NCBI GenBank assembly: GCA_041855685.1
Contig: JBHAEQ010000035.1
Location: 63,151-127,150, forward strand
Reading direction: 5' to 3'
DNA length: 64,000 nucleotides
From: Prevotella sp.
Lineage (GTDB): Bacteria; Bacteroidota; Bacteroidia; Bacteroidales; Bacteroidaceae
A program made the translations under genes and the position numbers. The notes below the pieces were generated by a model, which had not been told where the DNA came from, searched no databases, and saw only the letters and a program-made list of their open reading frames with translations. Shown piece after piece: positions 9,411 to 23,443 of this stretch (its first letter is position 1; each line of letters starts with the position of its first letter).

Positions 9411-10151
9411 ATGAAAAGGTTAGATTTGTTTTTAGCGACATTCGGGCTTATAGCAACAGCTTTCTGCCTCCAGTCGTGTTTAGGTGATGATGACGAGAAG
9501 ATGATTGCCTATCCTAATGCTCTGGTTACGGTAAAACCAAATGCCGACAATACACATTTTTACATGCAGCTTGACGAGAACACTACTCTGATGCCTACTA
9601 ACATGAAAGCATCGCCATTCGGTACAAAGGAAGTCAGGGCACTTGTAAACTATTCAAAGTCAGCAAAAGATGCAGGGCATTACAGTCAGGCTGTTACAGT
9701 GAACTGGATTGACTCGATACTTACCAAGCGCATGGCACCAAATGCCAATGACGAGGAAAATGTAAAGCTCTACGGCAACGACCCTGTTGAGATTGTCAAC
9801 GACTGGGTCACTATAGCCGAAGACGGGTATCTTACTCTTCGTTTCCGTACCCGTTGGGGAGTAGGAGTTAAGCATGTGCTGAATCTTGTGCATAGGACCG
9901 ATGCCAATACACCGTATCTCGTGACGTTCTATCATAACGCTAAAGGCGATGTTGGAGGGAGGGTAGGTGATGCACTTGTTGCATTCAAACTCGATGACCT
10001 GCCCGACACACAGGGAAAAACGGTTGACCTTACGCTGCAATGGCAGTCGTTCTCCGGAGTGAAAACGACAACATTCAAATACTGTACGCGCAAGGCAACG
10101 CTGTCAAAGGCAATGCTCGTAAGCAAGGATGTAGAGAATAATATCGAATAG
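9411..10151 (+). CDS. NigD-like lipoprotein
   Basis: Lipobox LQSC followed by LGDDDE; RALVNY, GNDPV and YLTLRF; first gene before the ECF sigma. Confidence 0.8.
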   Translation: MKRLDLFLATFGLIATAFCLQSCLGDDDEKMIAYPNALVTVKPNADNTHFYMQLDENTTLMPTNMKASPFGTKEVRALVNYSKSAKDAGHYSQAVTVNWIDSILTKRMAPNANDEENVKLYGNDPVEIVNDWVTIAEDGYLTLRFRTRWGVGVKHVLNLVHRTDANTPYLVTFYHNAKGDVGGRVGDALVAFKLDDLPDTQGKTVDLTLQWQSFSGVKTTTFKYCTRKATLSKAMLVSKDVENNIE

Positions 10152-10157
10152 TAGAAA

Positions 10158-10727
10158 GTGATTTTTATAGGGAGTAAAGAAGAACGCTTGGTAAAACAGC
10201 TTCGCAACGAAAACAACGGTGCGATGCAGGAGTTCTATTCCCTATATGCCGATTACCTGACAGGAGTATGCTCAAGATATATTGTGAATGACGAAGACAT
10301 TAAAGATGTCTTGCAGGATTCGTTGGTAAGCATATTTTCCAATATACGCAGTTTTGATTATCGTGGAGCAGGCTCGCTTCAGGCATGGGCGGCAAAGATA
10401 GTTGTAAACCAATCGCTGAAATTCCTGAAAGAAAAGAAGCGTAATGAGTTCGCAAGTCTTGACTGGGATATTGTTGATGAGACGGAACAGGACGACCCGC
10501 CAATAAGCGATGTGCCGCCAGACGTTATACACCGTATGGTTTGCGAACTCCCGACAGGCTATCGCACAGTATTCAACTTATATGTATTCGAGAATAAAAG
10601 CCACAAGGAAATTGCCGACTTGCTCGGAATAAAGAAGGACACATCATGCTCGCAGTTCAGCAGGGCAAAGAACCTGCTCATAAAAAAATTAACCGACTAT
10701 TATAAATTAAAACAGAACTCACGATGA
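10158..10727 (+). CDS. ECF sigma-70 factor (EcfO/Das-like)
   Basis: DVLQDSLV (region 2), LPTGYRTVFNLYVFENKSHKEIADLLGI and SRAK (region 4). Confidence 0.93.
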   Translation: MIFIGSKEERLVKQLRNENNGAMQEFYSLYADYLTGVCSRYIVNDEDIKDVLQDSLVSIFSNIRSFDYRGAGSLQAWAAKIVVNQSLKFLKEKKRNEFASLDWDIVDETEQDDPPISDVPPDVIHRMVCELPTGYRTVFNLYVFENKSHKEIADLLGIKKDTSCSQFSRAKNLLIKKLTDYYKLKQNSR

Positions 10728-11959
10728 AGGAAGAGACAAGAAAAGAATGGCAAAGCAAAATGGCAGGTTTCAAGAAATCTGCCCCTCCTGTGTCGTGGGA
10801 TTATATTGAGAAATCATTAGCGAGTAAGAGTCCTTCGAGCAAGGCAATTCCACTTTGGCTGAAAGTGTCGGGAGTTGCAGCAATACTATTATTGGTGTTA
10901 GGTGTAGGTTTACGTTTTTTCAATCCAGAATCGGAATCAACAAACCGGCAATTGGCAAATAACGAAAAACATATGCATGCCATAGAGTCTGAAACACAAG
11001 AAGAGAATAACCCTATAGAAGAAAGGATAGGCTCTTCAGTCATAAAGAAAATACTTAATGTATATGATTCAGAACTTATTGCTGAAAATACATCAGCCCC
11101 GGTAACTAAAATAGAACTTGATGATGTGAAGGAAGACAATGCGGGTGTTGTAGATAATTCTCAATCGGAACAACAGGCAGAGGCACAAGACAAAGAAAAA
11201 CATGTTGCAACAAAAAAGGGCAATGACTATACGGAAGAACCAATGAAACACAATTTCAATCGTTCATCTGTTAGTAGCGGCAGGCTTACGGCTAAAGCCT
11301 ATATGTCGAACATGGGGGGAGGTGCAAGTACTACTACGAGCATGAATACCATGATGACATCAGCTAATCCGTATGGTATATACAATGACGAGATGAATGT
11401 TAAAGACAGAATGTATTTAAATGAGGGCAAACCCGAGATTGAAGAAGAAATAAACCATCGTCAGCCCATACGCTTTGGCGTGTCGATTCGTTATAACATT
11501 AATAGTCGCTGGAGTGTAGAAAGTGGTTTGACATATACTCTGCTTGTTTCTGATTTGACACGTAAAATCAGTGGTTATACCTATACTACAGAGCAGAGAC
11601 TCTCTTATGTGGGACTGCCTGTAGGAGTAAGTTACAGCATATGGCAGAACCGGCATTTCAATATCTATGCTTCCGTAGGTGGAATTATAGAGAAGATGGT
11701 GAATGGAAAACAAACAACACAAATTACCAATCAGCCTTCTGCCGGACTAAGCGAGACAACCGGTGTGAGTATCCACCCGTTGCAACTATCGCTGAACGGT
11801 GGAATGGGAGCTGAATACAACATCAACAAGAGTATAAGTGTTTATGCAGAGCCGGGCATGGCATACCATTTTGACAACGGAAGTGATATTTCAACATTAT
11901 ATAAGGATAAGCCTCTTGGCTTCAATCTCAACTTAGGACTAAGATTCAATTTCAAATAA
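10724..11959 (+). CDS. Dual-membrane-spanning anti-sigma factor (Reo/Dma-like) with C-terminal beta-barrel
   Basis: Short N-terminal domain, one TM (WLKVSGVAAILLLVLGVGL), long E/K/N-rich linker, alternating beta-strands ending GLRFNFK; overlaps the sigma stop. Confidence 0.8.
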   Translation: MKEETRKEWQSKMAGFKKSAPPVSWDYIEKSLASKSPSSKAIPLWLKVSGVAAILLLVLGVGLRFFNPESESTNRQLANNEKHMHAIESETQEENNPIEERIGSSVIKKILNVYDSELIAENTSAPVTKIELDDVKEDNAGVVDNSQSEQQAEAQDKEKHVATKKGNDYTEEPMKHNFNRSSVSSGRLTAKAYMSNMGGGASTTTSMNTMMTSANPYGIYNDEMNVKDRMYLNEGKPEIEEEINHRQPIRFGVSIRYNINSRWSVESGLTYTLLVSDLTRKISGYTYTTEQRLSYVGLPVGVSYSIWQNRHFNIYASVGGIIEKMVNGKQTTQITNQPSAGLSETTGVSIHPLQLSLNGGMGAEYNINKSISVYAEPGMAYHFDNGSDISTLYKDKPLGFNLNLGLRFNFK

Positions 11960-12461: not shown

Positions 12462-12658
12462 CAACAAAAACATCTTGATTTTCAAATACCATGTAAAAAC
12501 CGCTTCTCGGTAAACTATATTCAAAACTATTTTATACTGAGAATTTTGCAAAGAAGATGTATCAAAACAAAATGGTACATCTTTTTTTTATTGCAGAACT
12601 CCCGACTTTTCACTGCTCTTTGCATCATACGTAAAAGCGCTCCGCCGATAGTAGCCCC

Positions 12659-12727
12659 CAAGGGTGTTTAACACTAACGGTCAAGGGTGTTTAACACTAA
12701 CGGTCAAGAGTGTTTAACACCAATGGC
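12659..12727. repeat. Three tandem 23-bp repeats (caagggtgtttaacactaacggt)
   Basis: Two identical units and one variant, directly adjacent with no spacers. Confidence 0.92.
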
Positions 12728-12894
12728 GAAGAAGGTGTGTCAAGTTTGATATATCCTATTTTGATATTAACACTTGCAATTAACAGCAATCCATAGAACA
12801 ACGAGGTGATTTTGCCGCACGGCAAGTGAAGCATCTCCCCGCATTTCTTGCCACATTTTCATGCAAATTCTTTTACTTTATAAACAATTTATGT

Positions 12895-12902
12895 TATCTT
12901 TG
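12895..12902 (+). promoter_or_regulatory. -7 promoter box (TATCTTTG) for the fructan regulator
   Basis: TAnnTTTG-CA, 24 nt upstream of the ATG. Confidence 0.7.
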
Positions 12903-12926
12903 CAACGTAAACTATAATAAATACCA

Positions 12927-14507
12927 ATGATGTCTTCAGTCTTCAAACAATGGATTTTCATCATCATAGCTCTACCTTTCCTACTGACATCATGTCATGA
13001 CAAGGGCAAGAAGTATGTGATAGGCGTGTCGCAGTGCTCGTCTGATGTCTGGCGTGACAAGCTCCGTGAAGAACTCGTCATGGCTACTTACCTCAACGAC
13101 GATGTAGAGATAAAATATGCCTGCGCATACGACGACCCTATAGTTCAGGCACGTCAGATAGACTCATTGGTAAACGAAGGCATAAACCTGCTTGTTGTAT
13201 CGCCGGAACAGATGCAGAGCATAACACCCGCCATCAACAATGTTTATGACAAAAACATTCCCGTCATACTCTTCGACCGTAAGACCGACTCCGAGAAATA
13301 TACCGCATTTATGGGTGCCGACAACTATCTCATAGGTGAACTCATAGGAAAATATGTGGCAGAACGATTGGGAGGAAAAGGAAATATAGTGGAAATAGGT
13401 GGACGGAAGACATCGTCGCCTGCCATAGAACGTACGCGTGGATTCAGAGACGTAATCGATAGATACCCCGACCTGCATATCGTAGGCTATGACGATACCG
13501 ACTGGACACCGGCATCAGGAGAAAAAGCCATGCGCAGTATTCTCAAACACTACACAGGAAGAATAGACTGTGTCTTCGGAGGCAACGACCGCATGGCAGT
13601 GGCTGCCAGAAAGGTGATGAAGCACATGGGAAGAGACAGCGACGACATCATATACGTCGGAGTTGACGCATTGCCCGGTAAAGACGGGGGTATGCAGCAG
13701 ATAGAAGACGGTATCCTTAGCGCCTCGGCAATATACCCTACTCATGGCGACGAGATAGTAAATTTGGCAGTTGATATAATCGAGGGATGCTCTTTTGAGA
13801 AAGAAAATCTGCTGCAGACGGTGCTTGTAACAAAAGACAACGCAAGACTACTACTCATGCAGAACGAGGAACTGATACGAAAATTCCATTATCTCGAGAT
13901 AATGCATCAGCGTATAGACAAGACATTGCAGCAACTCGGAACACAGAATATTCTGCTTTATACATTCATACTCATAACAATTGTCGTGTCCATGCTCCTG
14001 ATAATCATCATCAGAGCATACAGGCAGAAGCACGTGCTCAATATCAGTCTGGAGCAGGAAAAAGAAAAAGCCGAACGCCAGCGTGACGAACTTGAAGAAC
14101 AATGCGACAAACTAATAGAGGCAAGCCTCGCCAATGAAAGAGCAGACGACGCATCATTCTGGCAGGAGCCAAATGTTCAGGAAGAAAGTTCGTTCATGAG
14201 AAAGTTCGACAAAGTAGTGAAGGAAAACATCTCTGACTCCGACCTCAGTGTTGAGGCTATAGGTTCAAAGATGGGCTTTTCCCGTGTGCAACTCTACCGC
14301 AAGGTAAAAGCCCTTACAGGCATGTCGCCCGTGGAATATGTCCGCAAACGCCGTCTTGACAAAGCCCGCACCCTTCTGTCCGACACCTCAATGAGTATTT
14401 CCGAAACCGCCTATAAGGTTGGTTTCTCTTCACCCAGCTATTTCACCAAGTGCTACAAGGACGAGTTTGGAGAGAATCCTAAAAGTTCCAAAGAGAAAAG
14501 TTCATAA
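12927..14507 (+). CDS. Periplasmic sugar-binding domain + TM + AraC HTH regulator (BT1754-like, lacking kinase and receiver)
   Basis: Type I PBP motifs IGVSQCS, LLVVSP and FGGNDRMA; TM at about aa 342-365; AraC end GFSRVQLYRKVK and GFSSPSYFTKCYK; no H-box, ATPase or receiver sequence. Confidence 0.85.
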   Translation: MMSSVFKQWIFIIIALPFLLTSCHDKGKKYVIGVSQCSSDVWRDKLREELVMATYLNDDVEIKYACAYDDPIVQARQIDSLVNEGINLLVVSPEQMQSITPAINNVYDKNIPVILFDRKTDSEKYTAFMGADNYLIGELIGKYVAERLGGKGNIVEIGGRKTSSPAIERTRGFRDVIDRYPDLHIVGYDDTDWTPASGEKAMRSILKHYTGRIDCVFGGNDRMAVAARKVMKHMGRDSDDIIYVGVDALPGKDGGMQQIEDGILSASAIYPTHGDEIVNLAVDIIEGCSFEKENLLQTVLVTKDNARLLLMQNEELIRKFHYLEIMHQRIDKTLQQLGTQNILLYTFILITIVVSMLLIIIIRAYRQKHVLNISLEQEKEKAERQRDELEEQCDKLIEASLANERADDASFWQEPNVQEESSFMRKFDKVVKENISDSDLSVEAIGSKMGFSRVQLYRKVKALTGMSPVEYVRKRRLDKARTLLSDTSMSISETAYKVGFSSPSYFTKCYKDEFGENPKSSKEKSS

Positions 14508-14530: not shown

Positions 14531-14626
14531 ATGTTGCATATAGTAGTATTAATGTTTCAAAGTAACATATTTGTGTATATTTGAAACATTATTGTTTGCT
14601 AACCTTCTTGATTTAGATTAATTTTG
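14531..14626 (+). promoter_or_regulatory. susC promoter (-33 TTTG 14595-14598; -7 TAATTTTG 14619-14626) with upstream operator-like repeats
   Basis: 20-nt spacer between boxes; perfect 11-bp inverted repeat at 14551-14561 and 14580-14590. Confidence 0.7.
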
Positions 14627-14678: not shown

Positions 14679-17600
14679 ATGCAACAAAAGTTTTTCATCA
14701 GTATGTTTATGCTGCTAATCTCTGTTGTTCCGTCAATTGCACAGACAATACAGGTTAGCGGAACTGTTGTGTCTCTTTCTGATGGCGAACCACTCATCGG
14801 AGCCTCGGTTTTCGAGACAGGTACAAACAAGGGTACAGTGACCGATATTGACGGCAATTTTGTACTTGAAGTTAATTCCTCTTCAACTATCACTGTTTCG
14901 TATGTGGGTTTTCAGACCCAAACTCTCAAACCTCAACCTGTCATGACCATAAGCATGGTTGATGAAGCTGAACTTCAGGAAGTAGTTGTAACCGGATACA
15001 TGACAGAAAAGAAGTCAGACCTCACGGGTGCAGTGTCTGTAGTAAAAATTAAAGATGTGGCAGACGTACCCACAGGCAATGTAATGCAAGCCTTGCAGGG
15101 ACGCGTGGCTGGTATGAATATTACGACTGACGGCACACCTGGTGGTGGCAATACATCTACTTTAGTGCGTGGAACTACCACCATCAACAACTCATCTCCT
15201 CTATATGTAATAGACGGCATGCCTACACGTGATAACGTCGGATCAATAATATCAAGCGGTGATGTGGAATCTATTCAGGTATTGAAAGATGCTTCATCTG
15301 CTGCAATCTATGGTGCGCAGGCAGCAAATGGTGTCATCATTATTACCACTAAGCGTGCCAAGAAAGGTGAGATAAAGGTGGATTTTAGTGCCTCACTCAC
15401 AGCACAAACATTCTCTACAGGCGTTGATATGCTCAACACACAACAATGGGCTAACGCTTATTGGCAAGCTTATCAGAATGCTAATGGTGGCAATAATCCG
15501 TCATCACAATTATTTGGCAACGGTAACACTCCGGTCATAGCAAGTACTTATAAGAGCGGAGATAAGACCATGACTCTCTCTGATACTGACTGGGCTGAAG
15601 AAATTTATTCCACAGCCCTCTTACAAAACTATAACCTCACATTATCACGGGGAGGAGAGAACGGAGGCTCATCTGTGAGTTTCAACTATATGAATCATGA
15701 TGGAATGGTGCGCAATACAGACTACGAAAGTTTCAATACACGCATATCTGGAGATTATCATTTCTTGAATAACAAGTTGCGCATCGGTGAGAATGTAGCC
15801 GTGAGCCACTGGACACAACATCATGCTCCAAGTGGAATAGAAGAACTCATTTATAAACTCCAACCTATGGTTCCTGTGTATGCAACAGATGGTAGCTATG
15901 GTGGTGGATACGTAGATATTCTCAATGATAGTGCAAATCCTATACGACTCACAGACAATGAAAAGGACAACAAGCACACCTATTGGCGCATATTCGGTAG
16001 TGCATATGCGGAAGTTGAACCTATTACTAACCTTATACTCCGCTCCACTTTCGGTGTAAACTACTATCATGACAACAATTCCACCTTTATACCTAAATGG
16101 CAAGAAGGAGCACGCACTGTTGATACTAATGAACTTGCATCAAATAATTCAAGCCAATTTAACTGGGTGTGGACTAATCAGGCTCAGTATAGTTTTACTC
16201 TTGGACAGCATTCTTTCACAACTCTCTTAGGCATGGAAGCTAAGAAAGAGAAATATAACTATTTATATGGCTATGGCACAGGATTAAGATATGAAGATCT
16301 TGACTATCGTTATTTGAGCGCAGTGACATCTGGCAAGAATGTGGATGGTACAAGCAACACTTACTCAATGGTGTCATACTTTGGCAAGATAAACTACACA
16401 TTTGCTGATCGTTATTTAGCAAGTTTCACACTACGTCGCGATGCCTCAAGTCGCTTTGGCAGAAACAAGAACTCTGGTTATTTCCCATCAGTAAGTGCAG
16501 GCTGGCGTATAAGCAGTGAGAAATTTATGGCATCTACAAAGTCTTGGCTTGATGATTTGAAGCTTCGCGCCTCATGGGGTATCAATGGTAATGACCAGAT
16601 TGACAATTCTGCTACTTACAGCCTTTTCTCCAACTCACTAAATAATGGCGGTTATAATCTCAATGGCGATAACTCCACTCTCACAGCAGGAACAATCCGC
16701 ACACACAGCGGTAATAATAACCTCCGTTGGGAGCAGACACGTCAAATAAATGTTGGTTTCGATGCAACACTGCTAAACAACCGTCTTATTGTGGGCTTTG
16801 ATTTCTTTGATAAGCAAACAAAAGACATGCTCTATGAACCAGCTTATGCAGGTGTAGTGGGTGAAGGTGGCTACTCTTATCAGAATGTGGCAGCCATGAA
16901 CAATAAGGGTTATGAAGTCACACTGACATGGCGTGACAATATAAAAGACTTTAATTATGAGATAACTCTTAATGGTGCATTCTATAAAAACAAGATAACA
17001 GAACTCCCAGAAGCAGTGTATTACACTTGGGGGTGCGGTAATGGAGTAGATATAAGTAATGTAGGTTATGCTTATGGTTCATGGTTAGGCTATACGACTG
17101 ATGGTGTGTTCCACACTGACAACGAAGTAACAGAATACAATTCTAAGTATAATGTGCAGTATGGTCAGCCAGGAGTAGGCAGGTTAAAGTATGTTGATAC
17201 CAACGGCGACAACATCATCAATGCTTCAGACCGTGTAGTATTAGGTTCAGACCAACCAAAGTTTATAGGTGGTCTCACTCTCTCTGCCAACTATAAAGGC
17301 TTTGACCTCAGTCTCTTCTTTAATGGAATGGTGCGCAAGGCATGGAATAATTCAAAGTATTACACTGATCTTTGGGCTTACTGGATAGGCAATCACTCCA
17401 CAAGACTAATGGAGGCTTATGATGCATGGAATAATTACACCGCCACTGGAGTTTATAATTCTGATGTGCCGGCACTCACCACATCTACCGCAAATAATGA
17501 GAATGGAAGTTCTGACTTTTATGTGGAGAATGGTAATTACATTAAACTAAAGACATTCACGCTTGGTTACACTCTGCCAAAAAGCTTACTCAAAAAGTGT

Positions 17601-17741
17601 TTCATTCGCAATCTTAGAGTGTATTTCCAAACACAAAATCTCTTCACAATAACATCTTACACAGGTGCAGACCCTGAAGGATTGGGCTATAGATACCCTA
17701 TGCCACGCACATTTACATTTGGACTTAATATTGGTCTTTAA
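14679..17741 (+). CDS. susC: SusC-like TonB-dependent transporter (fructan PUL)
   Basis: GTVTDIDGNF, VLKDASSAAIYGAQAANGVIIITTK, C-terminal YPMPRTFTFGLNIGL. Confidence 0.96.
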   Translation: MQQKFFISMFMLLISVVPSIAQTIQVSGTVVSLSDGEPLIGASVFETGTNKGTVTDIDGNFVLEVNSSSTITVSYVGFQTQTLKPQPVMTISMVDEAELQEVVVTGYMTEKKSDLTGAVSVVKIKDVADVPTGNVMQALQGRVAGMNITTDGTPGGGNTSTLVRGTTTINNSSPLYVIDGMPTRDNVGSIISSGDVESIQVLKDASSAAIYGAQAANGVIIITTKRAKKGEIKVDFSASLTAQTFSTGVDMLNTQQWANAYWQAYQNANGGNNPSSQLFGNGNTPVIASTYKSGDKTMTLSDTDWAEEIYSTALLQNYNLTLSRGGENGGSSVSFNYMNHDGMVRNTDYESFNTRISGDYHFLNNKLRIGENVAVSHWTQHHAPSGIEELIYKLQPMVPVYATDGSYGGGYVDILNDSANPIRLTDNEKDNKHTYWRIFGSAYAEVEPITNLILRSTFGVNYYHDNNSTFIPKWQEGARTVDTNELASNNSSQFNWVWTNQAQYSFTLGQHSFTTLLGMEAKKEKYNYLYGYGTGLRYEDLDYRYLSAVTSGKNVDGTSNTYSMVSYFGKINYTFADRYLASFTLRRDASSRFGRNKNSGYFPSVSAGWRISSEKFMASTKSWLDDLKLRASWGINGNDQIDNSATYSLFSNSLNNGGYNLNGDNSTLTAGTIRTHSGNNNLRWEQTRQINVGFDATLLNNRLIVGFDFFDKQTKDMLYEPAYAGVVGEGGYSYQNVAAMNNKGYEVTLTWRDNIKDFNYEITLNGAFYKNKITELPEAVYYTWGCGNGVDISNVGYAYGSWLGYTTDGVFHTDNEVTEYNSKYNVQYGQPGVGRLKYVDTNGDNIINASDRVVLGSDQPKFIGGLTLSANYKGFDLSLFFNGMVRKAWNNSKYYTDLWAYWIGNHSTRLMEAYDAWNNYTATGVYNSDVPALTTSTANNENGSSDFYVENGNYIKLKTFTLGYTLPKSLLKKCFIRNLRVYFQTQNLFTITSYTGADPEGLGYRYPMPRTFTFGLNIGL

Positions 17742-17778
17742 TCATCTGAACATCTACAAATATAAAAAGACGAAAACT

Positions 17779-19581
17779 ATGAAAGTAAGAAATATATTCC
17801 TAAGCATAATCGTAACAGCGTCAACACTTACTGGCTGTAACGAATCAAGTTTTCTTGATAATCCTCCACAAGGTGTAGTGAGTGAATCTGTACTAAAGAC
17901 CGCTGATGGAGTGGAAGAACTCTGCACCGCTGCATACGCAGCATTGATGGGACCAAATCCACAAGACTGGTCTGTATGGTGGTATCCTGTAACTCACTGG
18001 ACTACGGGTGCTGTACGTTCTGACGATGCCCTCAAAGGCGGAGGAGGTACAGGTGATGGTAATGAAACACATAGATTAGAGATCTTTACTCTCGATGCTA
18101 CTGACGGTGTTACAGACTCTAAGTGGTATCACTTGTATGTGAGCGTGCAACGTTGCAACTCTGCATTAAAGGTGCTCAATGAGACTTCTACAGATGCAGT
18201 TCCACTCAAAGATCAGCGCATAGCAGAGATGAAAGTACTTCGTGCCCATTATTTCTTTGAACTCCAACGAATGTTCAATAAGATAGTATGGTTTGACGAG
18301 AATGTTACCGAACAAGAGGTATCGTCTATTCCTAACACAGAATACTCTCGTGAACAATTATTAGATCTCATAGCCGCTGATATAGAAAACAGTCTTGTTA
18401 ATCTTCCAGAGAGCCAAGGCGAAGAAGTGGGACGTGTGAATCGCTGGATGGCAAAGGCTTATCTTGCAAAAGTATATCTTTATAGAGCTTATGAACAAGA
18501 TCCAAACACTCACGCTGTGACAAACATCAATGCAGAGTATCTTAATAAGGTAGTAACACTTTGTCAAGATATACGCAACAGTGGAAAGTACGGTCTCTTT
18601 GAGGATTTCCAAGATCTTGACCTTGTGAACAATGACAATGGCAAGGAATGTATATGGGATATACAATTCTCTATGAATGATGGTTCTAACAGTGCAGGAC
18701 GTGTCAACTGGAGCATGTTGCTTAATGCACCGCAAGGACCTTACTCTGGAGATGGTTTCTTTCTACCATCGCAAGACTTAGTCAACTCTTTCCAGACTGA
18801 CAATGACGGACTTCCACAGTTTAACTATCAATCTCTCCCTGACTTTGACCAAGTAACTGTAACTAATGATGTTGTGACAACAAGCAATAACAGTCACACT
18901 GTTGACCCACGTTTAGACTTTATCATAGGTCGTCCAGGTGTAACATGGAAGACTTACACCGAATCGCCTTGCCTCGCTACATGGGTAAGAGATCGTGGCA
19001 CATATGGTTATCACACTTCAAAACGTTTCTTTGTATCACCAGAATCATCTGAAATGTACAAGGGATGGCCTTGGGGTGCAAGTGCTCTCAACTGGCACAT
19101 GATACGTTATGCACACATTTTATTGTGGGAAGCTGAAGCACTTGTAGAACTTGGTCGTCATAACGACGCTCGTCCTTTGATAAATCAAATACGCCAGCGT
19201 GCTAAGCAGTCTTCATATGTAAAGGCATGGACAAATGGCAATTATAATGGCAATTGTCCTAACTACGATGGATTTGCAGCTAATTATGTAATCAACGAAT
19301 ACCCTGAAAATGGATGGACACAAGACTATGCTCGTCAGGCAGTGCGCTTTGAGTCAAGAGTGGAAACTGCCTTGGAAGGCGAACGATTCTTTGATCTTGT
19401 GCGCTGGGGTGTGGCAAGTAGTGTGATGAACAACTTCTTTGCTCGTGAGAAAACCTCACGTGTTTACTATGAGGGAGTTACATTCAAATCAGGAAAAGAC
19501 GAATATTTGCCAATCACTAATAATCAATACAAGTTCTCTGGACAGAACTATGAGCAAAACCCTGGTTACGCTCCATTCTAA
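17779..19581 (+). CDS. susD: SusD-like glycan-binding lipoprotein
   Basis: Start MKVRNIF (ATG 17779), lipobox LTGC, LRAHYFFEL, EGERFFDLVRWG and QNPGY end. Confidence 0.95.
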   Translation: MKVRNIFLSIIVTASTLTGCNESSFLDNPPQGVVSESVLKTADGVEELCTAAYAALMGPNPQDWSVWWYPVTHWTTGAVRSDDALKGGGGTGDGNETHRLEIFTLDATDGVTDSKWYHLYVSVQRCNSALKVLNETSTDAVPLKDQRIAEMKVLRAHYFFELQRMFNKIVWFDENVTEQEVSSIPNTEYSREQLLDLIAADIENSLVNLPESQGEEVGRVNRWMAKAYLAKVYLYRAYEQDPNTHAVTNINAEYLNKVVTLCQDIRNSGKYGLFEDFQDLDLVNNDNGKECIWDIQFSMNDGSNSAGRVNWSMLLNAPQGPYSGDGFFLPSQDLVNSFQTDNDGLPQFNYQSLPDFDQVTVTNDVVTTSNNSHTVDPRLDFIIGRPGVTWKTYTESPCLATWVRDRGTYGYHTSKRFFVSPESSEMYKGWPWGASALNWHMIRYAHILLWEAEALVELGRHNDARPLINQIRQRAKQSSYVKAWTNGNYNGNCPNYDGFAANYVINEYPENGWTQDYARQAVRFESRVETALEGERFFDLVRWGVASSVMNNFFAREKTSRVYYEGVTFKSGKDEYLPITNNQYKFSGQNYEQNPGYAPF

Positions 19582-19600
19582 GTAATTCAAAGCAAACTGA

Positions 19601-19634
19601 AACTGTGGGAGTCTAAACATGTACTCCCACAGTT
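19601..19634 (+). terminator. Intergenic stem-loop between susD and GH32
   Basis: Perfect 12-bp inverted repeat AACTGTGGGAGT / ACTCCCACAGTT with a 10-nt loop and no U-tract. Confidence 0.7.
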
Positions 19635-19665
19635 AAGTACACTAAGATTAACAACTTCAACAACA

Positions 19666-21378
19666 ATGACAATGAAACAATTTTCTATTCTTTGTTCCCT
19701 CTTTCTCTCCTTATATATAAATAATGTGATAGCAGGAGACATTAAGGGCAATGACATACATTTCCTACGGCAAGAACAAAGCATGATAAACATCACTGCT
19801 CAGAGTGAGTATCTACTCATACCAGTAGAAGAAGCGCAAGAGAACAGCCACATAAGAGTGATACAAAACAATAACTGCATCAAGGAGTTCAATGTAAAAT
19901 TAGCAGTCAATCGCATTGATTATTATGTACCTCTGCTGCTCAACATCCTTGGTAGTAAAGATGCTATCTTAGATATTCACCTTAACAATAACAATGCAAA
20001 AGGTGTAGATACAAAGGATTTTATATGCTGGAAAGAACTCAAGTATTCAAGTACTTTTGACACAACAAATATAGAAAAGTACCGTCCTGCTTATCATCAC
20101 ACCCCGTTGTGGGGGTGGATGAACGATCCTAACGGTATGTTTTATAAAGACGGTGTGTGGCATCTGTATTATCAGTACAATCCTTATGGTTCGCAATGGG
20201 AGAATATGACATGGGGGCACTCTACTTCTACAGACCTTGTGAACTGGACCTTTGAAGGCGAAGCCATAGAGCCTGATGCTCTTGGCACTATTTTCAGCGG
20301 TTCGTGTGTAGTAGATAAAAACAATACTGCTGGATTCGGAAAAAATGCCGTTGTGGCAATGTACACATCAGCTGGTAAGAGTCAGACACAGAGCCTTGCA
20401 TATTCAGTAGATGGCGGAAAGACTTTCACGAAGTATGCTACCAATCCTGTGATAACGTCTGATGTTCCTGATTTCCGTGATCCCCACATGTTCTGGCATG
20501 AGCAAACTGGCAAGTGGATACTCATTCTTGCAGCAGGTCAACACATGGAAATATTCTCATCTGACAATCTAAAACAATGGACTTATGAGAGTAGTTTTGG
20601 CGAAGGCTATGGCAATCATGGTGGAGTGTGGGAATGTCCTGACCTCTTCCAGATAGGCAATAAGTGGTTCTTACTATGCAATATCAATCCCGGTGGTCCT
20701 TTTGGTGGTAGTGCAACGCAGTATTTTGTTGGTAGGTTTGACGGAAAGGAATTCGTATGTGAGGACTCACCGTTGGAGACGAAGTGGATGGACTATGGCA
20801 AGGACCATTATGCAACAGTTAGTTTTGACAATGCTCCGGAAGGACGTCGTGTTGTAATTCCATGGATGAGCAACTGGCAGTATGCCAACCAAGTGCCTAC
20901 GAAGCAATTTCGCTCTGCCAATGGCTTGCCTCGTGATATAAGCAGCTTTGATTACAAAGGTGAGACTTACCTCAAGATACTACCTTCAAAAGAGCTGGAT
21001 GCCATAAGAGGAACAAAGACGAATGTTCTTCATGCAACTGCAGAGATAGTAGTAACAATCAAAGGTAATACCACCATCACCCTGAGTAATGACAAAGGCG
21101 AGCAAGTAGTTATGACTTACAATGATAAGGATGAGACTTTCTCTATGGATCGCACACAGAGCGGTGATGTTAGCTTCAGCAATGACTTTCCTGTTGTTAC
21201 AACAGCTCCAACTCATGGAAAGATAAGTGCACTGCGTATATTTATAGATAATAGCAGTATAGAAGTGTTTGACACTGGGGGTAAGATGGTAATGACCAAT
21301 CTTGTATTTCCCACCTCGCCTTATAATAAGCTAAGCACCACGGGCAAGGCTAAGGCTATGATATATGACATTAAATAA
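19666..21378 (+). CDS. GH32 beta-fructofuranosidase / exo-fructanase with N-terminal DUF4980-like domain
   Basis: Catalytic motifs WMNDPNG, FRDP and WECP; signal peptide. Confidence 0.95.
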   Translation: MTMKQFSILCSLFLSLYINNVIAGDIKGNDIHFLRQEQSMINITAQSEYLLIPVEEAQENSHIRVIQNNNCIKEFNVKLAVNRIDYYVPLLLNILGSKDAILDIHLNNNNAKGVDTKDFICWKELKYSSTFDTTNIEKYRPAYHHTPLWGWMNDPNGMFYKDGVWHLYYQYNPYGSQWENMTWGHSTSTDLVNWTFEGEAIEPDALGTIFSGSCVVDKNNTAGFGKNAVVAMYTSAGKSQTQSLAYSVDGGKTFTKYATNPVITSDVPDFRDPHMFWHEQTGKWILILAAGQHMEIFSSDNLKQWTYESSFGEGYGNHGGVWECPDLFQIGNKWFLLCNINPGGPFGGSATQYFVGRFDGKEFVCEDSPLETKWMDYGKDHYATVSFDNAPEGRRVVIPWMSNWQYANQVPTKQFRSANGLPRDISSFDYKGETYLKILPSKELDAIRGTKTNVLHATAEIVVTIKGNTTITLSNDKGEQVVMTYNDKDETFSMDRTQSGDVSFSNDFPVVTTAPTHGKISALRIFIDNSSIEVFDTGGKMVMTNLVFPTSPYNKLSTTGKAKAMIYDIK

Positions 21379-21406
21379 TAACTAAACCTATAAATATCCT
21401 TTAACA

Positions 21407-22564
21407 ATGAGTAAGAATAATAAATTCGCTATCATCGTTGTAATGTTCTGCTTCTTCACAATGGGCTTTGTTGACCTTGTGGGAATTGCTAGCAATTATG
21501 TGAAGGAAGATCTTCAATTGAGCGACTCTGTGGCTAACATCTTTCCTTCGTTGGTCTTCTTCTGGTTTCTAATCTTCAGTGTGCCCACAGGCATTTTGAT
21601 GAACCGTATTGGCAGGAAGAAGACAGTACTTTTGTCTCTTGTAGTGACTGTACTGTCGCTCATGTTACCACTATTCGGCAAGTCGTTCATAGTTATGCTT
21701 CTTGCATTCTCGCTGCTTGGCATAGGTAATGCTTTGATGCAGACATCGCTCAATCCTCTTGTGACAACGGTATTTGGAGGTGGAAGGAATCTTGCTTCCA
21801 CTCTCACCTTCGGACAATTCATAAAGGCGATTGCATCATTTCTTGCACCTTATCTTGCCATGTGGGGTGCAATAGGGATTATTCCCACATTAGGACTTGA
21901 CTGGCGAGCACTCTTTGCCGTTTATTTTGTAGTGGGAACTATTGCCACAGCTCTTCTTGCTGTCACTCCCATCACAGAAACACCCATCGAGGGCAAAGCA
22001 TCGAGCATTATGGACTGTCTGCGGCTGCTGGGCAAACCTATAGTACTGTTGACATTCCTTGGTATAATGTGTCATGTGGGCATTGATGTAGGTACGAATA
22101 CCACTGCTCCTAAGATTCTGATAGAACGTCTTGGAATGACTCTTAACGAAGCTGCATTCGCAACATCGCTTTATTTTATATTCCGCACGGTGGGCTGTCT
22201 CACAGGAAGTTTCTTCCTCAGAATCCTGCATACTCGTACTTTCTTCATTGTGTCGGTATTGATGATGGCTTTGTCAATGGCAGGACTGTTCTTTGGTACA
22301 AGTAAACTTGTGCTTTATACTGCCATTGCACTTGTGGGATACGGCAACTCTAATATATTCTCGATGTGCTTTGCCAATGCCCTGCAATCTGTGCCTGACA
22401 AGCAGAACGAAGTTAGCGGACTGATGATTATGGGACTGTTTGGTGGTACGATATTCCCACTTGTAATGGGATTTGCAAGCGATGCCATCGGACAGGCTGG
22501 AGCAGTGTTGGTAATGCTCATGGGAGTGGTATATTTGTTTACTTATATTAATAAATTGAAATAG
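21407..22564 (+). CDS. MFS sugar (fructose) permease
   Basis: About 12 hydrophobic segments, GILMNRIGRKKT MFS loop motif; lies between GH32 and fructokinase. Confidence 0.9.
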   Translation: MSKNNKFAIIVVMFCFFTMGFVDLVGIASNYVKEDLQLSDSVANIFPSLVFFWFLIFSVPTGILMNRIGRKKTVLLSLVVTVLSLMLPLFGKSFIVMLLAFSLLGIGNALMQTSLNPLVTTVFGGGRNLASTLTFGQFIKAIASFLAPYLAMWGAIGIIPTLGLDWRALFAVYFVVGTIATALLAVTPITETPIEGKASSIMDCLRLLGKPIVLLTFLGIMCHVGIDVGTNTTAPKILIERLGMTLNEAAFATSLYFIFRTVGCLTGSFFLRILHTRTFFIVSVLMMALSMAGLFFGTSKLVLYTAIALVGYGNSNIFSMCFANALQSVPDKQNEVSGLMIMGLFGGTIFPLVMGFASDAIGQAGAVLVMLMGVVYLFTYINKLK

Positions 22565-22567
22565 TGT

Positions 22568-23443
22568 ATGAAATATGTAATAGGAATAGGTGAAGCTCTT
22601 TTCGACTGTCTTCCTGAAGGAAAGAAACTCGGTGGAGCGCCGGCAAACTTCGCTTATATGGCAGGTCAGTTCGGACTTGACACCATGGCTGTAAGTGCAA
22701 TTGGAGATGATGAGTTAGGGCATGAAATACAAAGGCAACTTGGAGAGAAGCACCTTAACTCAGAGCTTGCAATTGTGCCTTTTGAAACAGGTTCTGTGCA
22801 GGTAACACTTGATGCAGCGGGTATTCCTCAATATGTCATTAAAGAAAACGTGGCATGGGATAATGTGCCTTATACTGACAAATTGAAGAGGATAGCACAA
22901 AATACACATGCTGTGTGTTTTGGCTCGCTGGCGCAGCGCAGTCTGACGACACGCCAGACAATAAAGTCATTTCTTGATGATATGCCTGATGATGAATCTG
23001 TACTGAAGATTTTCGATATCAACCTGCGTCAGAACTTTTATTCAAAGGAGGTTATAGAGGAAAGCCTACAGAAGTGTAACATTCTAAAGATAAACGACGA
23101 GGAACTAACCATTCTTGCTGATATGTACTCGTGGAATTGTATTAGTTTCAAGGACCAATGCTGGATTCTGCTTGCCAAGTATGCATTGAAAATGCTTATT
23201 CTTACCTGCGGTACAGATGGTAGTTATGTCTTTACACCTGGTGGAGTATCATTCCAACCAACTCCTAAGGTTGATGTGGCTGACACTGTTGGAGCTGGTG
23301 ATTCGTTTACAGGCTCGTTTGTAGCTTCGATTTTGAAAGGTAAGACTGTAGCCGAAGCACATCAAAGGGCTGTAGAAGTAAGTGCTTTTGTGTGCACACA
23401 AGACGGAGCTATGCCTGTGTTGCCGCAGAACTTACTTTTTTAA
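22568..23443 (+). CDS. PfkB-family carbohydrate kinase (fructokinase)
   Basis: GGAPANF and DTVGAGDSF PfkB signatures; fructan PUL context. Confidence 0.92.
   Translation: MKYVIGIGEALFDCLPEGKKLGGAPANFAYMAGQFGLDTMAVSAIGDDELGHEIQRQLGEKHLNSELAIVPFETGSVQVTLDAAGIPQYVIKENVAWDNVPYTDKLKRIAQNTHAVCFGSLAQRSLTTRQTIKSFLDDMPDDESVLKIFDINLRQNFYSKEVIEESLQKCNILKINDEELTILADMYSWNCISFKDQCWILLAKYALKMLILTCGTDGSYVFTPGGVSFQPTPKVDVADTVGAGDSFTGSFVASILKGKTVAEAHQRAVEVSAFVCTQDGAMPVLPQNLLF

What the first reader, a model, noticed from the sequence alone, without database searches (positions are those of the whole stretch)
12927..14507. Hybrid two-component regulator that lost its kinase and receiver: a one-component transmembrane AraC sensor
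The protein has the architecture of the B. thetaiotaomicron fructose sensor BT1754 (periplasmic-binding-protein sensor, coiled coil, TM). The post-TM helix (EQCDKLIEASL) runs through a short linker straight into the AraC HTH (EESSFMRKF), with no H-box, ATPase or receiver. The ORF is intact and the downstream PUL is complete, so signalling may be phosphorylation-independent, as in ToxR/CadC-type regulators.
Basis: partly seen in the sequence, partly recalled or inferred. Interest (0 to 1): 0.65.

Follow-up and report, generated by a model that had tools for sequence, protein, structure and literature searches.

The report
Kinase-less membrane fructose sensor-regulator
This Prevotella gene encodes a membrane-spanning fructose sensor joined directly to a DNA-binding domain; it descends from a well-known two-component regulator that has lost its whole phosphorylation relay, and this stripped form is common, conserved and arose several times in gut bacteria.

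Summary
Window 12927-14507(+) encodes an intact 526-aa protein with these parts in order:
- lipoprotein-type signal peptide;
- BT1754-like periplasmic sugar-binding domain (PDB 2x7x, E 8e-75);
- one continuous stalk/TM/cytoplasmic helix;
- 11-residue hinge;
- AraC DNA-binding domain.

It has no HisKA, HATPase or receiver. It heads a complete fructan locus (SusC, SusD, GH32, MFS, fructokinase).

It is not an assembly oddity. Thousands of homologues share the architecture. Relatives fall into three classes: full HTCS (~900 aa), an intermediate lacking only the ATPase (~740 aa), and the short form. A tree plus an AU test (p 1.7e-64) shows the short form arose at least 3-4 times.

The evidence that it is functional:
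- All regions are under purifying selection.
- Sensor residues invariant in full-length relatives are 86-100% kept.
- The DBD-side "latch" residues that bind the receiver in HTCSs have relaxed only in the short forms.
- A 21-bp-spaced ATGTTKCA repeat operator, unique in the genome, abuts the susC promoter, and similar sites occur in intermediate and full-length loci.

Most likely it is a phosphorylation-independent, ligand-gated activator. That function is inferred, not tested. The general kind is already known (SusR; BguR, 2026 preprint). This is a new PBP-AraC variant with a traceable deletion ancestry.

The parts
12895..12902 (+). Bacteroidetes-type -7 promoter box (TATCTTTG) of the regulator gene
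   Evidence: Only TAnnTTTG match in 12462-12930, 25 nt before the ATG. Consensus match only, not tested.
12927..14507 (+). Regulator CDS, 526 aa: PBP sensor - TM - helix - AraC DBD (class S, clade S1)
12927..12995 (+). Signal peptide with lipobox (LLTSC; Cys23)
   Evidence: Cys23 is invariant in the 56-sequence alignment A1. It is present in 78 of 80 S/M/F sequences at that column. AF2 models a helix at 2-21.
13008..13841 (+). Periplasmic type-I sugar-binding (fructose-sensor) domain, aa 28-305
   Evidence: Pfam PF13407. 2x7x E 8e-75. Of the 51 columns invariant in 49 F+M sequences, 88% are kept in clade S1. dN/dS 0.03-0.17.
13842..14138 (+). One continuous helix, aa 306-404: periplasmic stalk (306-343), TM (344-366), cytoplasmic signalling helix (367-404; EKEKAERQRDELEEQCDKLIEASLANE)
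   Evidence: AF2 model has a single helix H306-404 with pLDDT mostly 84-92. The cytoplasmic helix is nearly invariant in S1. It aligns without gaps to the TM-to-H-box helix of the Phocaeicola coprocola HTCS (41% over 61 aa, E 1e-13).
14139..14171 (+). Flexible hinge, aa 405-415 (RADDASFWQEP); marks the deletion scar between the signalling helix and the DBD
   Evidence: AF2 pLDDT <50 at 403-415. Alignment junction.
14172..14504 (+). AraC-type DNA-binding domain with two HTH motifs, aa 416-526
   Evidence: Pfam HTH_18/HTH_AraC. PDB 12aw (an HTCS REC-DBD fragment) E 2.9e-18. Seven helices in the AF2 model. dN/dS 0.01-0.18.
14531..14589 (.). Predicted operator: ATGTTGCA(14531-38)-N13-ATGTTTCA(14552-59), mirrored by AGTAACAT(14561-68)-N13-TGAAACAT(14582-89)
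   Evidence: The pattern ATGTTKCA-N12-14-ATGTTKCA occurs once in the 2.63-Mb genome. Window scan. The same ++- geometry over 59-60 nt lies upstream of the first PUL gene in S1 and S4 loci, with variants in S2/M and F loci. The 21-bp spacing equals that reported for HTCS motifs (PMC3878776).
14595..14626 (+). susC promoter: -33 TTTG (14595-98) and -7 TAATTTTG (14619-26)
   Evidence: Equivalent TAnnTTTG boxes lie 35-45 bp after the third site in the other loci. Consensus match only.
14679..23443 (+). Fructan PUL: SusC, SusD, GH32 (with DUF4980), MFS transporter, PfkB fructokinase
   Evidence: Pfam. The same gene set follows S, M and F regulators elsewhere.

Best explanation
The gene encodes a membrane-anchored one-component activator of the adjacent fructan utilisation locus. 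[quoted passage not shown] That deletion removed HisKA, HATPase and the receiver cleanly. It kept the periplasmic sugar-binding sensor, the stalk-TM-juxtamembrane signalling helix and the AraC DNA-binding domain.

Proposed mechanism (inferred): the protein is a homodimer. Fructose closes the periplasmic binding domain, and this changes the register or crossing angle of the paired 99-residue helices. The two AraC domains hang from those helices on 11-residue hinges. The change sets their spacing so that they occupy the 21-bp-spaced ATGTTKCA repeats that abut the -33 element of the susC promoter, and they then activate transcription. No phosphorylation is involved.

Loss of the receiver removed the REC-DBD latch that keeps HTCS DNA-binding domains off. 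Gating must therefore come from sensor-controlled geometry or proximity.

Shown here: architecture, ancestry, repeated origin, purifying selection, sensor conservation, latch relaxation, and a conserved, genome-unique operator. Inferred: fructose as ligand, dimerisation, activation, and the way the signal crosses the membrane.
For: Architecture without phosphorelay.
Ancestry: three classes confirmed by Pfam, namely F = PBP-HisKA-HATPase-REC-HTH, M = the same minus HATPase, S = PBP-HTH. The deletion junctions map exactly to the HisKA start and the DBD start.
Spread: the best 120 of 7087 hits all share the S architecture. There are 32 S, 31 M and 17 F among 80 species-representative loci. At least 26 of ~400 family genomes in 6 genera carry the S form. 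About 40 of the best 150 representatives at 50% identity are S-length.
Independent origins: the tree needs 4 changes, of which at least 3 are forced by well-supported branches. The AU test rejects S monophyly at p 1.7e-64. The four clades have different linkers.
Function retained: dN/dS is 0.03-0.17 in the sensor, 0.01-0.18 in the DBD and 0.05-0.5 in the linker. Sensor columns invariant in F+M are 86-100% kept. The cytoplasmic helix is nearly invariant in S1.
Latch: SHIP, the acidic residue and the Lys are fixed in F/M (47/48, 46/48, 48/48). The DBD-side positions are relaxed only in S, in line with the latch model of PMC13292587.
Target: the operator is unique in the genome and sits next to the susC -33 element. 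It recurs in S, M and F loci with the 21-bp spacing typical of HTCS motifs.
Regulator position: every S locus with enough flanking DNA is followed by fructan genes. The window's genome has no other PBP-type sensor.
Precedent: BguR and SusR show that phosphorelay-free membrane regulators can activate PULs.
Against: There is no expression, binding or genetic evidence for any S-form protein. The S. copri htcs-Inu genetics most probably concern a full-length HTCS. Removing the REC latch is expected to make the DBD constitutively competent for DNA binding, so ligand gating is not guaranteed. Clades S2 and S3 have long disordered or short polar linkers, and these cannot transmit a rigid helical signal, so the helix-geometry mechanism cannot be general. 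The fructose-contact residues of BT1754 could not be looked up, so ligand identity rests on overall conservation and context. Dimerisation was not modelled.
Confidence: 0.68

Rival explanations
1. Constitutive activator. With the inhibitory receiver gone, the membrane-tethered AraC domains bind the operator all the time. The locus would then be controlled elsewhere, for example by catabolite control, sRNA or substrate uptake. The sensor would serve only for dimerisation or stability.
For: In HTCSs the unphosphorylated REC is what blocks the DBD, and breaking the latch gives constitutive DNA binding (PMC13292587). S forms lack REC, and their latch partner residues have drifted. S2/S3 linkers are disordered.
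Against: The sensor domain is under purifying selection as strong as that on the DBD (dN/dS 0.03-0.17). It keeps 86-100% of the columns that are invariant in full-length sensors, including the cleft-type motifs. This holds in four independent lineages. A scaffold used only for dimerisation would not need them. The juxtamembrane helix is nearly invariant in S1.
Confidence: 0.14
2. Proximity-only (ToxR/CadC-like) gating. The ligand controls dimerisation or clustering of the sensor, and this simply brings loosely tethered DBDs together for cooperative binding to the repeats. The helix transmits no defined conformational signal.
For: Linker length and composition vary widely among S clades. The distance from TM end to the HTH motif is 62-133 aa, and S2 has a ~95-aa P/S/T/Q-rich stretch. 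The operator has 3-4 repeated sites, which suits cooperative binding. A low-confidence hinge precedes the DBD.
Against: In the window's own clade (S1) the cytoplasmic helix is almost invariant. It is the retained HTCS signalling helix, and its hinge is only 11 residues. This argues for a defined geometry in this protein. The two mechanisms are not mutually exclusive across clades.
Confidence: 0.13
3. Regulated proteolysis. Ligand binding triggers cleavage at or near the membrane or hinge and releases a soluble AraC domain.
For: An exposed, low-confidence hinge at 405-415. Regulated proteolysis is known for other membrane-bound transcription factors (general knowledge).
Against: No protease gene is linked to any of the 32 S loci examined. 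The hinge sequence is not conserved between clades. Neither SusR nor BguR has been reported to need it.
Confidence: 0.03
4. Decaying remnant or assembly artefact with no regulatory role.
For: None beyond the missing domains. A few relatives do carry internal stops (G182 and G042; L049).
Against: The ORF is intact. Thousands of homologues have the same architecture. Purifying selection acts on every region. Position in front of fructan genes is conserved. It is the only BT1754-type sensor in a genome with a complete fructan PUL.
Confidence: 0.02

Closest known systems
BT1754 (HTCS_Fru) of Bacteroides thetaiotaomicron, the fructose-sensing PBP-type hybrid two-component system (sensor structure PDB 2x7x)
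   Same: Homologous periplasmic sensor (E 8e-75), lipobox signal, stalk-TM-juxtamembrane helix, AraC DBD, linkage to SusC/D-GH32-fructokinase genes, and 21-bp-spaced repeat operators.
   Different: About 400 residues are missing. There is no HisKA/H-box, no HATPase, no receiver Asp and no SHIP latch, so no phosphorelay is possible.
[quoted passage not shown]
   Same: HTCS-type periplasmic sensor, one TM, a helical linker and a cytoplasmic DBD in one chain, with no phosphorelay domains. Encoded next to the PUL it controls, with a conserved motif upstream of the first PUL gene. Genetically shown to be an activator.
   Different: BguR has a double beta-propeller + Y_Y_Y sensor and a GerE/LuxR-type HTH, is 940 aa, and is from marine Flavobacteriia. 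The protein here has a PBP sensor and keeps the HTCS's own AraC DBD. Its deletion ancestry, an ATPase-less intermediate and multiple origins are directly visible.
SusR of B. thetaiotaomicron (starch utilisation system regulator)
   Same: Inner-membrane one-component sensor/activator of a PUL. It binds a sugar in the periplasm and activates without phosphotransfer (PMC3878776).
   Different: Unrelated sensor and DNA-binding domains. Predicted operators have 67-77-bp spacing. Only a sub-threshold DUF6377 hit over the TM/helix region (E 0.018).
ToxR / CadC-type transmembrane transcription regulators
   Different: Opposite topology: they have an N-terminal cytoplasmic OmpR-type winged-helix DBD and a C-terminal periplasmic sensor. 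There is no homology in any domain.

Membership tests
Hybrid two-component system (HTCS), BT1754 type | Periplasmic sugar sensor (COG1879/Peripla_BP_4) followed by a TM segment | tested here: met
   Pfam PF13407 E 3e-43; 2x7x E 8e-75; TM at 344-366
Hybrid two-component system (HTCS), BT1754 type | HisKA dimerisation/phospho-acceptor domain with H-box histidine | tested here: not met
   No PF00512 hit at E<=1; H-box motif in 0/32 S sequences against 45/48 in M+F
Hybrid two-component system (HTCS), BT1754 type | HATPase_c catalytic domain | tested here: not met
   No PF02518 hit; G2 box in 0/32 S, 0/31 M, 17/17 F
Hybrid two-component system (HTCS), BT1754 type | Receiver domain with phospho-acceptor Asp and SHIP latch | tested here: not met
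   No PF00072 hit; D(V)MMP and SHIP motifs in 0/32 S
Hybrid two-component system (HTCS), BT1754 type | C-terminal AraC-type DBD | tested here: met
   PF12833 E 1.5e-22, PF00165 E 2.3e-13
Membrane-spanning one-component PUL regulators (SusR, BguR) | Periplasmic sensor, single TM and cytoplasmic DBD in one chain, with no phosphorelay domains | tested here: met
Membrane-spanning one-component PUL regulators (SusR, BguR) | Encoded beside the PUL, with a conserved motif upstream of the first PUL gene | tested here: met
Membrane-spanning one-component PUL regulators (SusR, BguR) | Required for substrate-dependent induction (activator shown genetically) | not testable with these tools
Membrane-spanning one-component PUL regulators (SusR, BguR) | Sequence homology to BguR (propeller/Y_Y_Y + GerE) or to SusR | tested here: not met
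   No Reg_prop, Y_Y_Y or GerE hit; only DUF6377 at E 0.018, below cut-off. The kind is shared, the families are not.
ToxR/CadC-type transmembrane regulators | N-terminal cytoplasmic OmpR-type winged-helix DBD, TM, C-terminal periplasmic sensor | tested here: not met
   The domain order is reversed and the DBD is AraC type
AraC/XylS family | About 100-aa DBD with two helix-turn-helix motifs | tested here: met
   Pfam; seven-helix domain at 416-524 in the AF2 model

The most novel reading that the evidence does not exclude
The phosphorelay of BT1754-type HTCSs may be dispensable for ligand gating. On this reading the sensor-stalk-TM-signalling-helix module alone can switch a pair of AraC domains on and off. 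Evolution has then shed the relay repeatedly in steps: full HTCS, then an ATPase-less form that keeps His, Asp and latch, then sensor-helix-DBD. The M forms would be stable intermediates whose DHp-REC works as a purely allosteric clamp, or one phosphorylated in trans. The S forms would be natural minimal transmembrane switches that show how HTCS sensors move their output domains.
Probability: 0.35. Interest if true: 0.75.

Novelty: new variant of a known kind. Interest (0 to 1): 0.55.

Why it matters
HTCSs are the main glycan sensors of gut Bacteroidota, and how they pass a signal across the membrane to DNA is still unresolved.

This family offers a natural deletion series in a sensor whose ligand and structure are known. 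The series runs from the full relay, to a form without the ATPase, to a form with no relay at all. It has replicated origins, a conserved operator, and a visible relaxation of the receiver-DBD latch.

This makes two questions directly testable in fructan loci that matter for Prevotella/Segatella ecology in gut and rumen:
- Is phosphorylation in HTCSs needed for more than releasing receiver inhibition?
- Can sensor-driven helix geometry alone gate transcription?

It also corrects annotation. These proteins are labelled only 'substrate-binding domain-containing protein'. HTCS domain searches would miss them, so fructan PULs may be scored wrongly as lacking a regulator. Minimal sensor-TM-DBD switches are also attractive parts for engineered fructose biosensors.

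Tried and rejected
1. I asked whether the genetically characterised S. copri htcs-Inu (required for inulin growth and fructose signalling) is an S form, which would have given direct functional proof. This was rejected as unlikely. It was found by an HTCS domain search. A same-genus genome whose layout fits the DSM 18205 description has an 898-aa full-length form, offset from GH32.
2. Fructose-contact residues of BT1754: the Sonnenburg 2010 paper is not held. I used conservation of columns invariant in F+M instead.
4. Organism name through identical proteins: no names in the clusters and no record for P0122. Earlier notes call the genome a Prevotella.
5. The sigma-70 promoter/terminator scan was uninformative, with counts equal to the shuffles. 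I used Bacteroidetes -7/-33 consensus matching instead.
6. Synteny of flanking genes (NigD/ECF cassette) between S- and F-bearing congeners: no shared flanks found in the short loci available.
7. Literature searches for a prior description of kinase-less BT1754-type regulators found none. BguR was found only through an earlier scan note.
8. Supplements of the EMBO J paper are not held.

Full report
**Observation.** Window 12927-14507 (+) is an intact 526-codon ORF. [quoted passage not shown] It finds nothing for HisKA, HATPase_c or Response_reg, even at E<=1. The best solved relative is 2x7x, the periplasmic domain of the B. thetaiotaomicron fructose sensor BT1754 (E 8e-75, residues 30-344). 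The C-terminus matches the DBD part of an HTCS REC-DBD structure (12aw, E 2.9e-18). Downstream on the same strand lie SusC, SusD, GH32 with DUF4980, an MFS transporter and a PfkB fructokinase, which together make a complete fructan PUL.

**Anatomy.** An AlphaFold2 model built on 56 homologues is confident (mean pLDDT 86.9). It shows the following:
- an N-terminal hydrophobic helix ending in a lipobox (LLTSC; Cys23 is invariant);
- the two-lobed binding domain;
- a single unbroken helix from residue 306 to 404, covering the periplasmic stalk, the membrane segment (344-366) and 38 cytoplasmic residues;
- an 11-residue hinge of low confidence (405-415);
- a seven-helix AraC domain (416-524).

The cytoplasmic part of the helix (consensus EKExAERQRDELEEQRDKLIE) is almost invariant across the clade, far more conserved than a spacer needs to be.

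**Spread.** A search of 5.8 billion proteins gave 7087 hits. The best 120 are all 515-588 aa, with the same two domains and no phosphorelay domains. Where named, they are annotated only as 'substrate-binding domain-containing protein'. A scan of species-representative genomes returned 80 loci in three clean size classes, which Pfam confirms:
- **F** (882-923 aa): PBP-HisKA-HATPase-REC-AraC, the canonical HTCS.
- **M** (727-761 aa): the same without the HATPase domain.
- **S** (481-575 aa): PBP-AraC only.

All three classes occur within the window's own genus. Some genomes hold two classes a few kb apart, each in front of its own SusC/SusD pair. In about 400 good genomes of the family, 184 have a BT1754-type sensor. 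By my count of the listed rows, at least 26 genomes in 6 genera have the S form. Among the best 150 representatives at 50% identity from 1.84 billion proteins, roughly 40 are S-length, 8 are M-length and about 90 are F-length. The window's own genome has the S form as its only PBP-type sensor.

**Ancestry.** In the alignment, the S deletion begins exactly where HisKA begins and ends a few residues before the first DBD helix. The query's TM plus cytoplasmic helix aligns without gaps to the TM-to-H-box segment of the Phocaeicola coprocola HTCS (41% over 61 residues, E 1e-13). The query's helix ends ('EASLA') where that protein continues 'EATHA|KLAFFTNVSHD'. A maximum-likelihood tree on the shared columns needs four changes of the S state, and at least three are forced by well-supported branches. 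The four S groups are:
- the query's clade S1 (21 sequences, support 99);
- a pair (S2) nested inside the M clade;
- a Muribaculaceae-labelled clade (S3);
- a Paludibacteraceae-labelled clade (S4), sister to the Bacteroidaceae F forms.

An AU test rejects a single S clade (delta lnL 122, p 1.7e-64). The junctions also differ. S1 keeps the charged helix, S2 has a ~95-residue Pro/Ser/Thr/Gln-rich linker, S3 has a short polar one, and S4 has a short coiled segment. The M class can only be explained by deletion from F. It still has the H-box (28/31), the receiver Asp (31/31) and the SHIP motif (31/31), but no ATP-binding G2 box (0/31).

**Evidence of function.**
- Pairwise dN/dS within S1 is 0.03-0.17 for the sensor, 0.01-0.18 for the DBD and 0.05-0.5 for the cytoplasmic linker.
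- Of the 51 sensor columns invariant in all 49 F+M sequences (including the 2x7x sequence), 86-100% are kept in each S clade. These include the QCS-D-WR, DN, R, W, ND, D and YPT motifs typical of sugar-binding clefts.
- Every S locus with enough flanking DNA is followed by fructan genes.

**Loss of the latch.** Gao et al. (JBC 2026, PMC13292587) show that in HTCSs the unphosphorylated receiver clamps the AraC domain through a C/SHIP-D.K latch, and that breaking the latch gives constitutive DNA binding. Here the DBD-side latch positions are fixed in F and M (acidic residue 46/48, Lys 48/48). They have drifted only in the receiver-less S clades: position 420 is E/Q/R, G, S/C/N or A/D/E, and Lys459 becomes Arg in six S sequences and in no other. 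This fits a latch that is under selection in F/M and defunct in S.

**Target DNA.** Between the regulator and susC lie ATGTTGCA-N13-ATGTTTCA (14531-14559) and a mirrored pair, AGTAACAT-N13-TGAAACAT (14561-14589). These end 5 nt before a -33 TTTG, which is followed 20 nt later by a -7 TAATTTTG. The direct-repeat pattern occurs once in the whole 2.63-Mb genome. The same two-direct-plus-one-inverted arrangement over 59-60 nt precedes the first PUL gene in many S1 loci and in an S4 locus. Variants occur in S2 and M loci (AATCGTTCA ... TGAACGATT) and in F loci of Bacteroides, Phocaeicola and Prevotellaceae. The 21-bp spacing is the one that Ravcheev et al. inferred for HTCS operators (PMC3878776). 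The output side of the system therefore seems unchanged; only the coupling between sensor and DBD has changed.

**Mechanism (inferred).** The protein most likely acts as a homodimeric, phosphorylation-independent activator. Fructose binding in the periplasm alters the paired long helices. This sets the position of the two hinge-tethered AraC domains, so that they can occupy the repeats next to the -33 element. The near-invariance of the retained signalling helix in S1 supports defined mechanical coupling for this protein. The disordered linkers of S2 and S3 suggest that proximity alone can suffice in other lineages. Because the inhibitory receiver is gone, constitutive activity is the main rival, and the strong conservation of the sensor argues against it. 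The S. copri htcs-Inu genetics probably concern a full-length form.

**Comparison with what is known.** The protein fails the HTCS definition on three of five features, so it is a derivative and not a member. It belongs in kind with the membrane-spanning one-component PUL regulators. These are SusR and BguR; the latter was described in a 2026 preprint (10.64898/2026.01.10.698779), where deleting it abolishes growth on laminarin. It is homologous to neither: BguR has a propeller/Y_Y_Y sensor and a GerE DBD. ToxR and CadC are only loose analogues with the opposite topology. I found no paper describing kinase-less BT1754-type regulators. Earlier agents of this scan noted the same family in other genomes. 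I confirmed their main claims independently here.

**Verdict.** This is a new PBP-AraC variant of a recently recognised kind of regulator. It stands out for its visible stepwise and repeated descent from a well-studied HTCS. Interest is moderate to high for specialists in Bacteroidota glycan sensing, and the decisive experiments are straightforward.

Noticed in passing
L027:9980-12178, L050:9899-12199 and 29 further loci (L028-L057, L061): Class M regulators: BT1754-type HTCSs that lack only the HATPase domain. They keep the H-box His (28/31), receiver Asp (31/31) and SHIP latch (31/31). They form one clade in rumen/gut Bacteroidales, and each sits in front of SusC-SusD-GH32-GH32. How a relay without its ATPase is phosphorylated, if it is at all, is open.
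   Followed up: partly
window 12659-12720: A 23-bp tandem repeat (CAAGGGTGTTTAACACTAACGGT, 2.7 copies, 97% matches) lies about 200 bp upstream of the regulator gene. The same unit occurs in tandem at one other place in the genome (G000:C51:33029-33069). Possibly a binding array for another factor.
   Followed up: partly
window 12927-12995 and all S/M/F homologues: The N-terminal signal ends in a lipobox whose Cys is conserved in 78 of 80 sequences of all three classes. BT1754-type sensors are therefore probably lipid-anchored at the N-terminus with a single true TM helix, not two-TM proteins.
   Followed up: partly
In S. copri a different sRNA (SrcF) is repressed by fructose through the inulin HTCS, so an sRNA link to this locus may be worth testing.
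   Followed up: no
L096 (G008:C1:6000-25999), L097 (G010:C99:72000-91999): Some congeners carry two BT1754-type regulators of different classes 5-13 kb apart (M+S, F+S). Each precedes its own SusC/SusD pair, which suggests two fructan loci with differently wired regulators in one cell.
   Followed up: partly
L007, L008, L010, L013, L018, L079: Records titled Faecalibacterium, Bifidobacteriaceae, Spirochaetota, Gemmiger or Clostridium carry typical Bacteroidales SusC/SusD fructan loci. They cluster inside the Prevotella-type S1 clade, so the MAG records are probably mis-binned or mislabelled.
   Followed up: no
L049:548-2731; G182:C24:19895-21436; G042:C18:180407-181942: A few homologues are interrupted: a broken M-type gene in L049, and an S-type reading frame with one internal stop in each of G182 and G042. 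These are either occasional decay or sequencing errors.
   Followed up: no
window 9411-11959: A NigD-like lipoprotein, an ECF sigma factor and an anti-sigma-like protein with a C-terminal OMP beta-barrel lie upstream of the regulator (Pfam).
   Followed up: no
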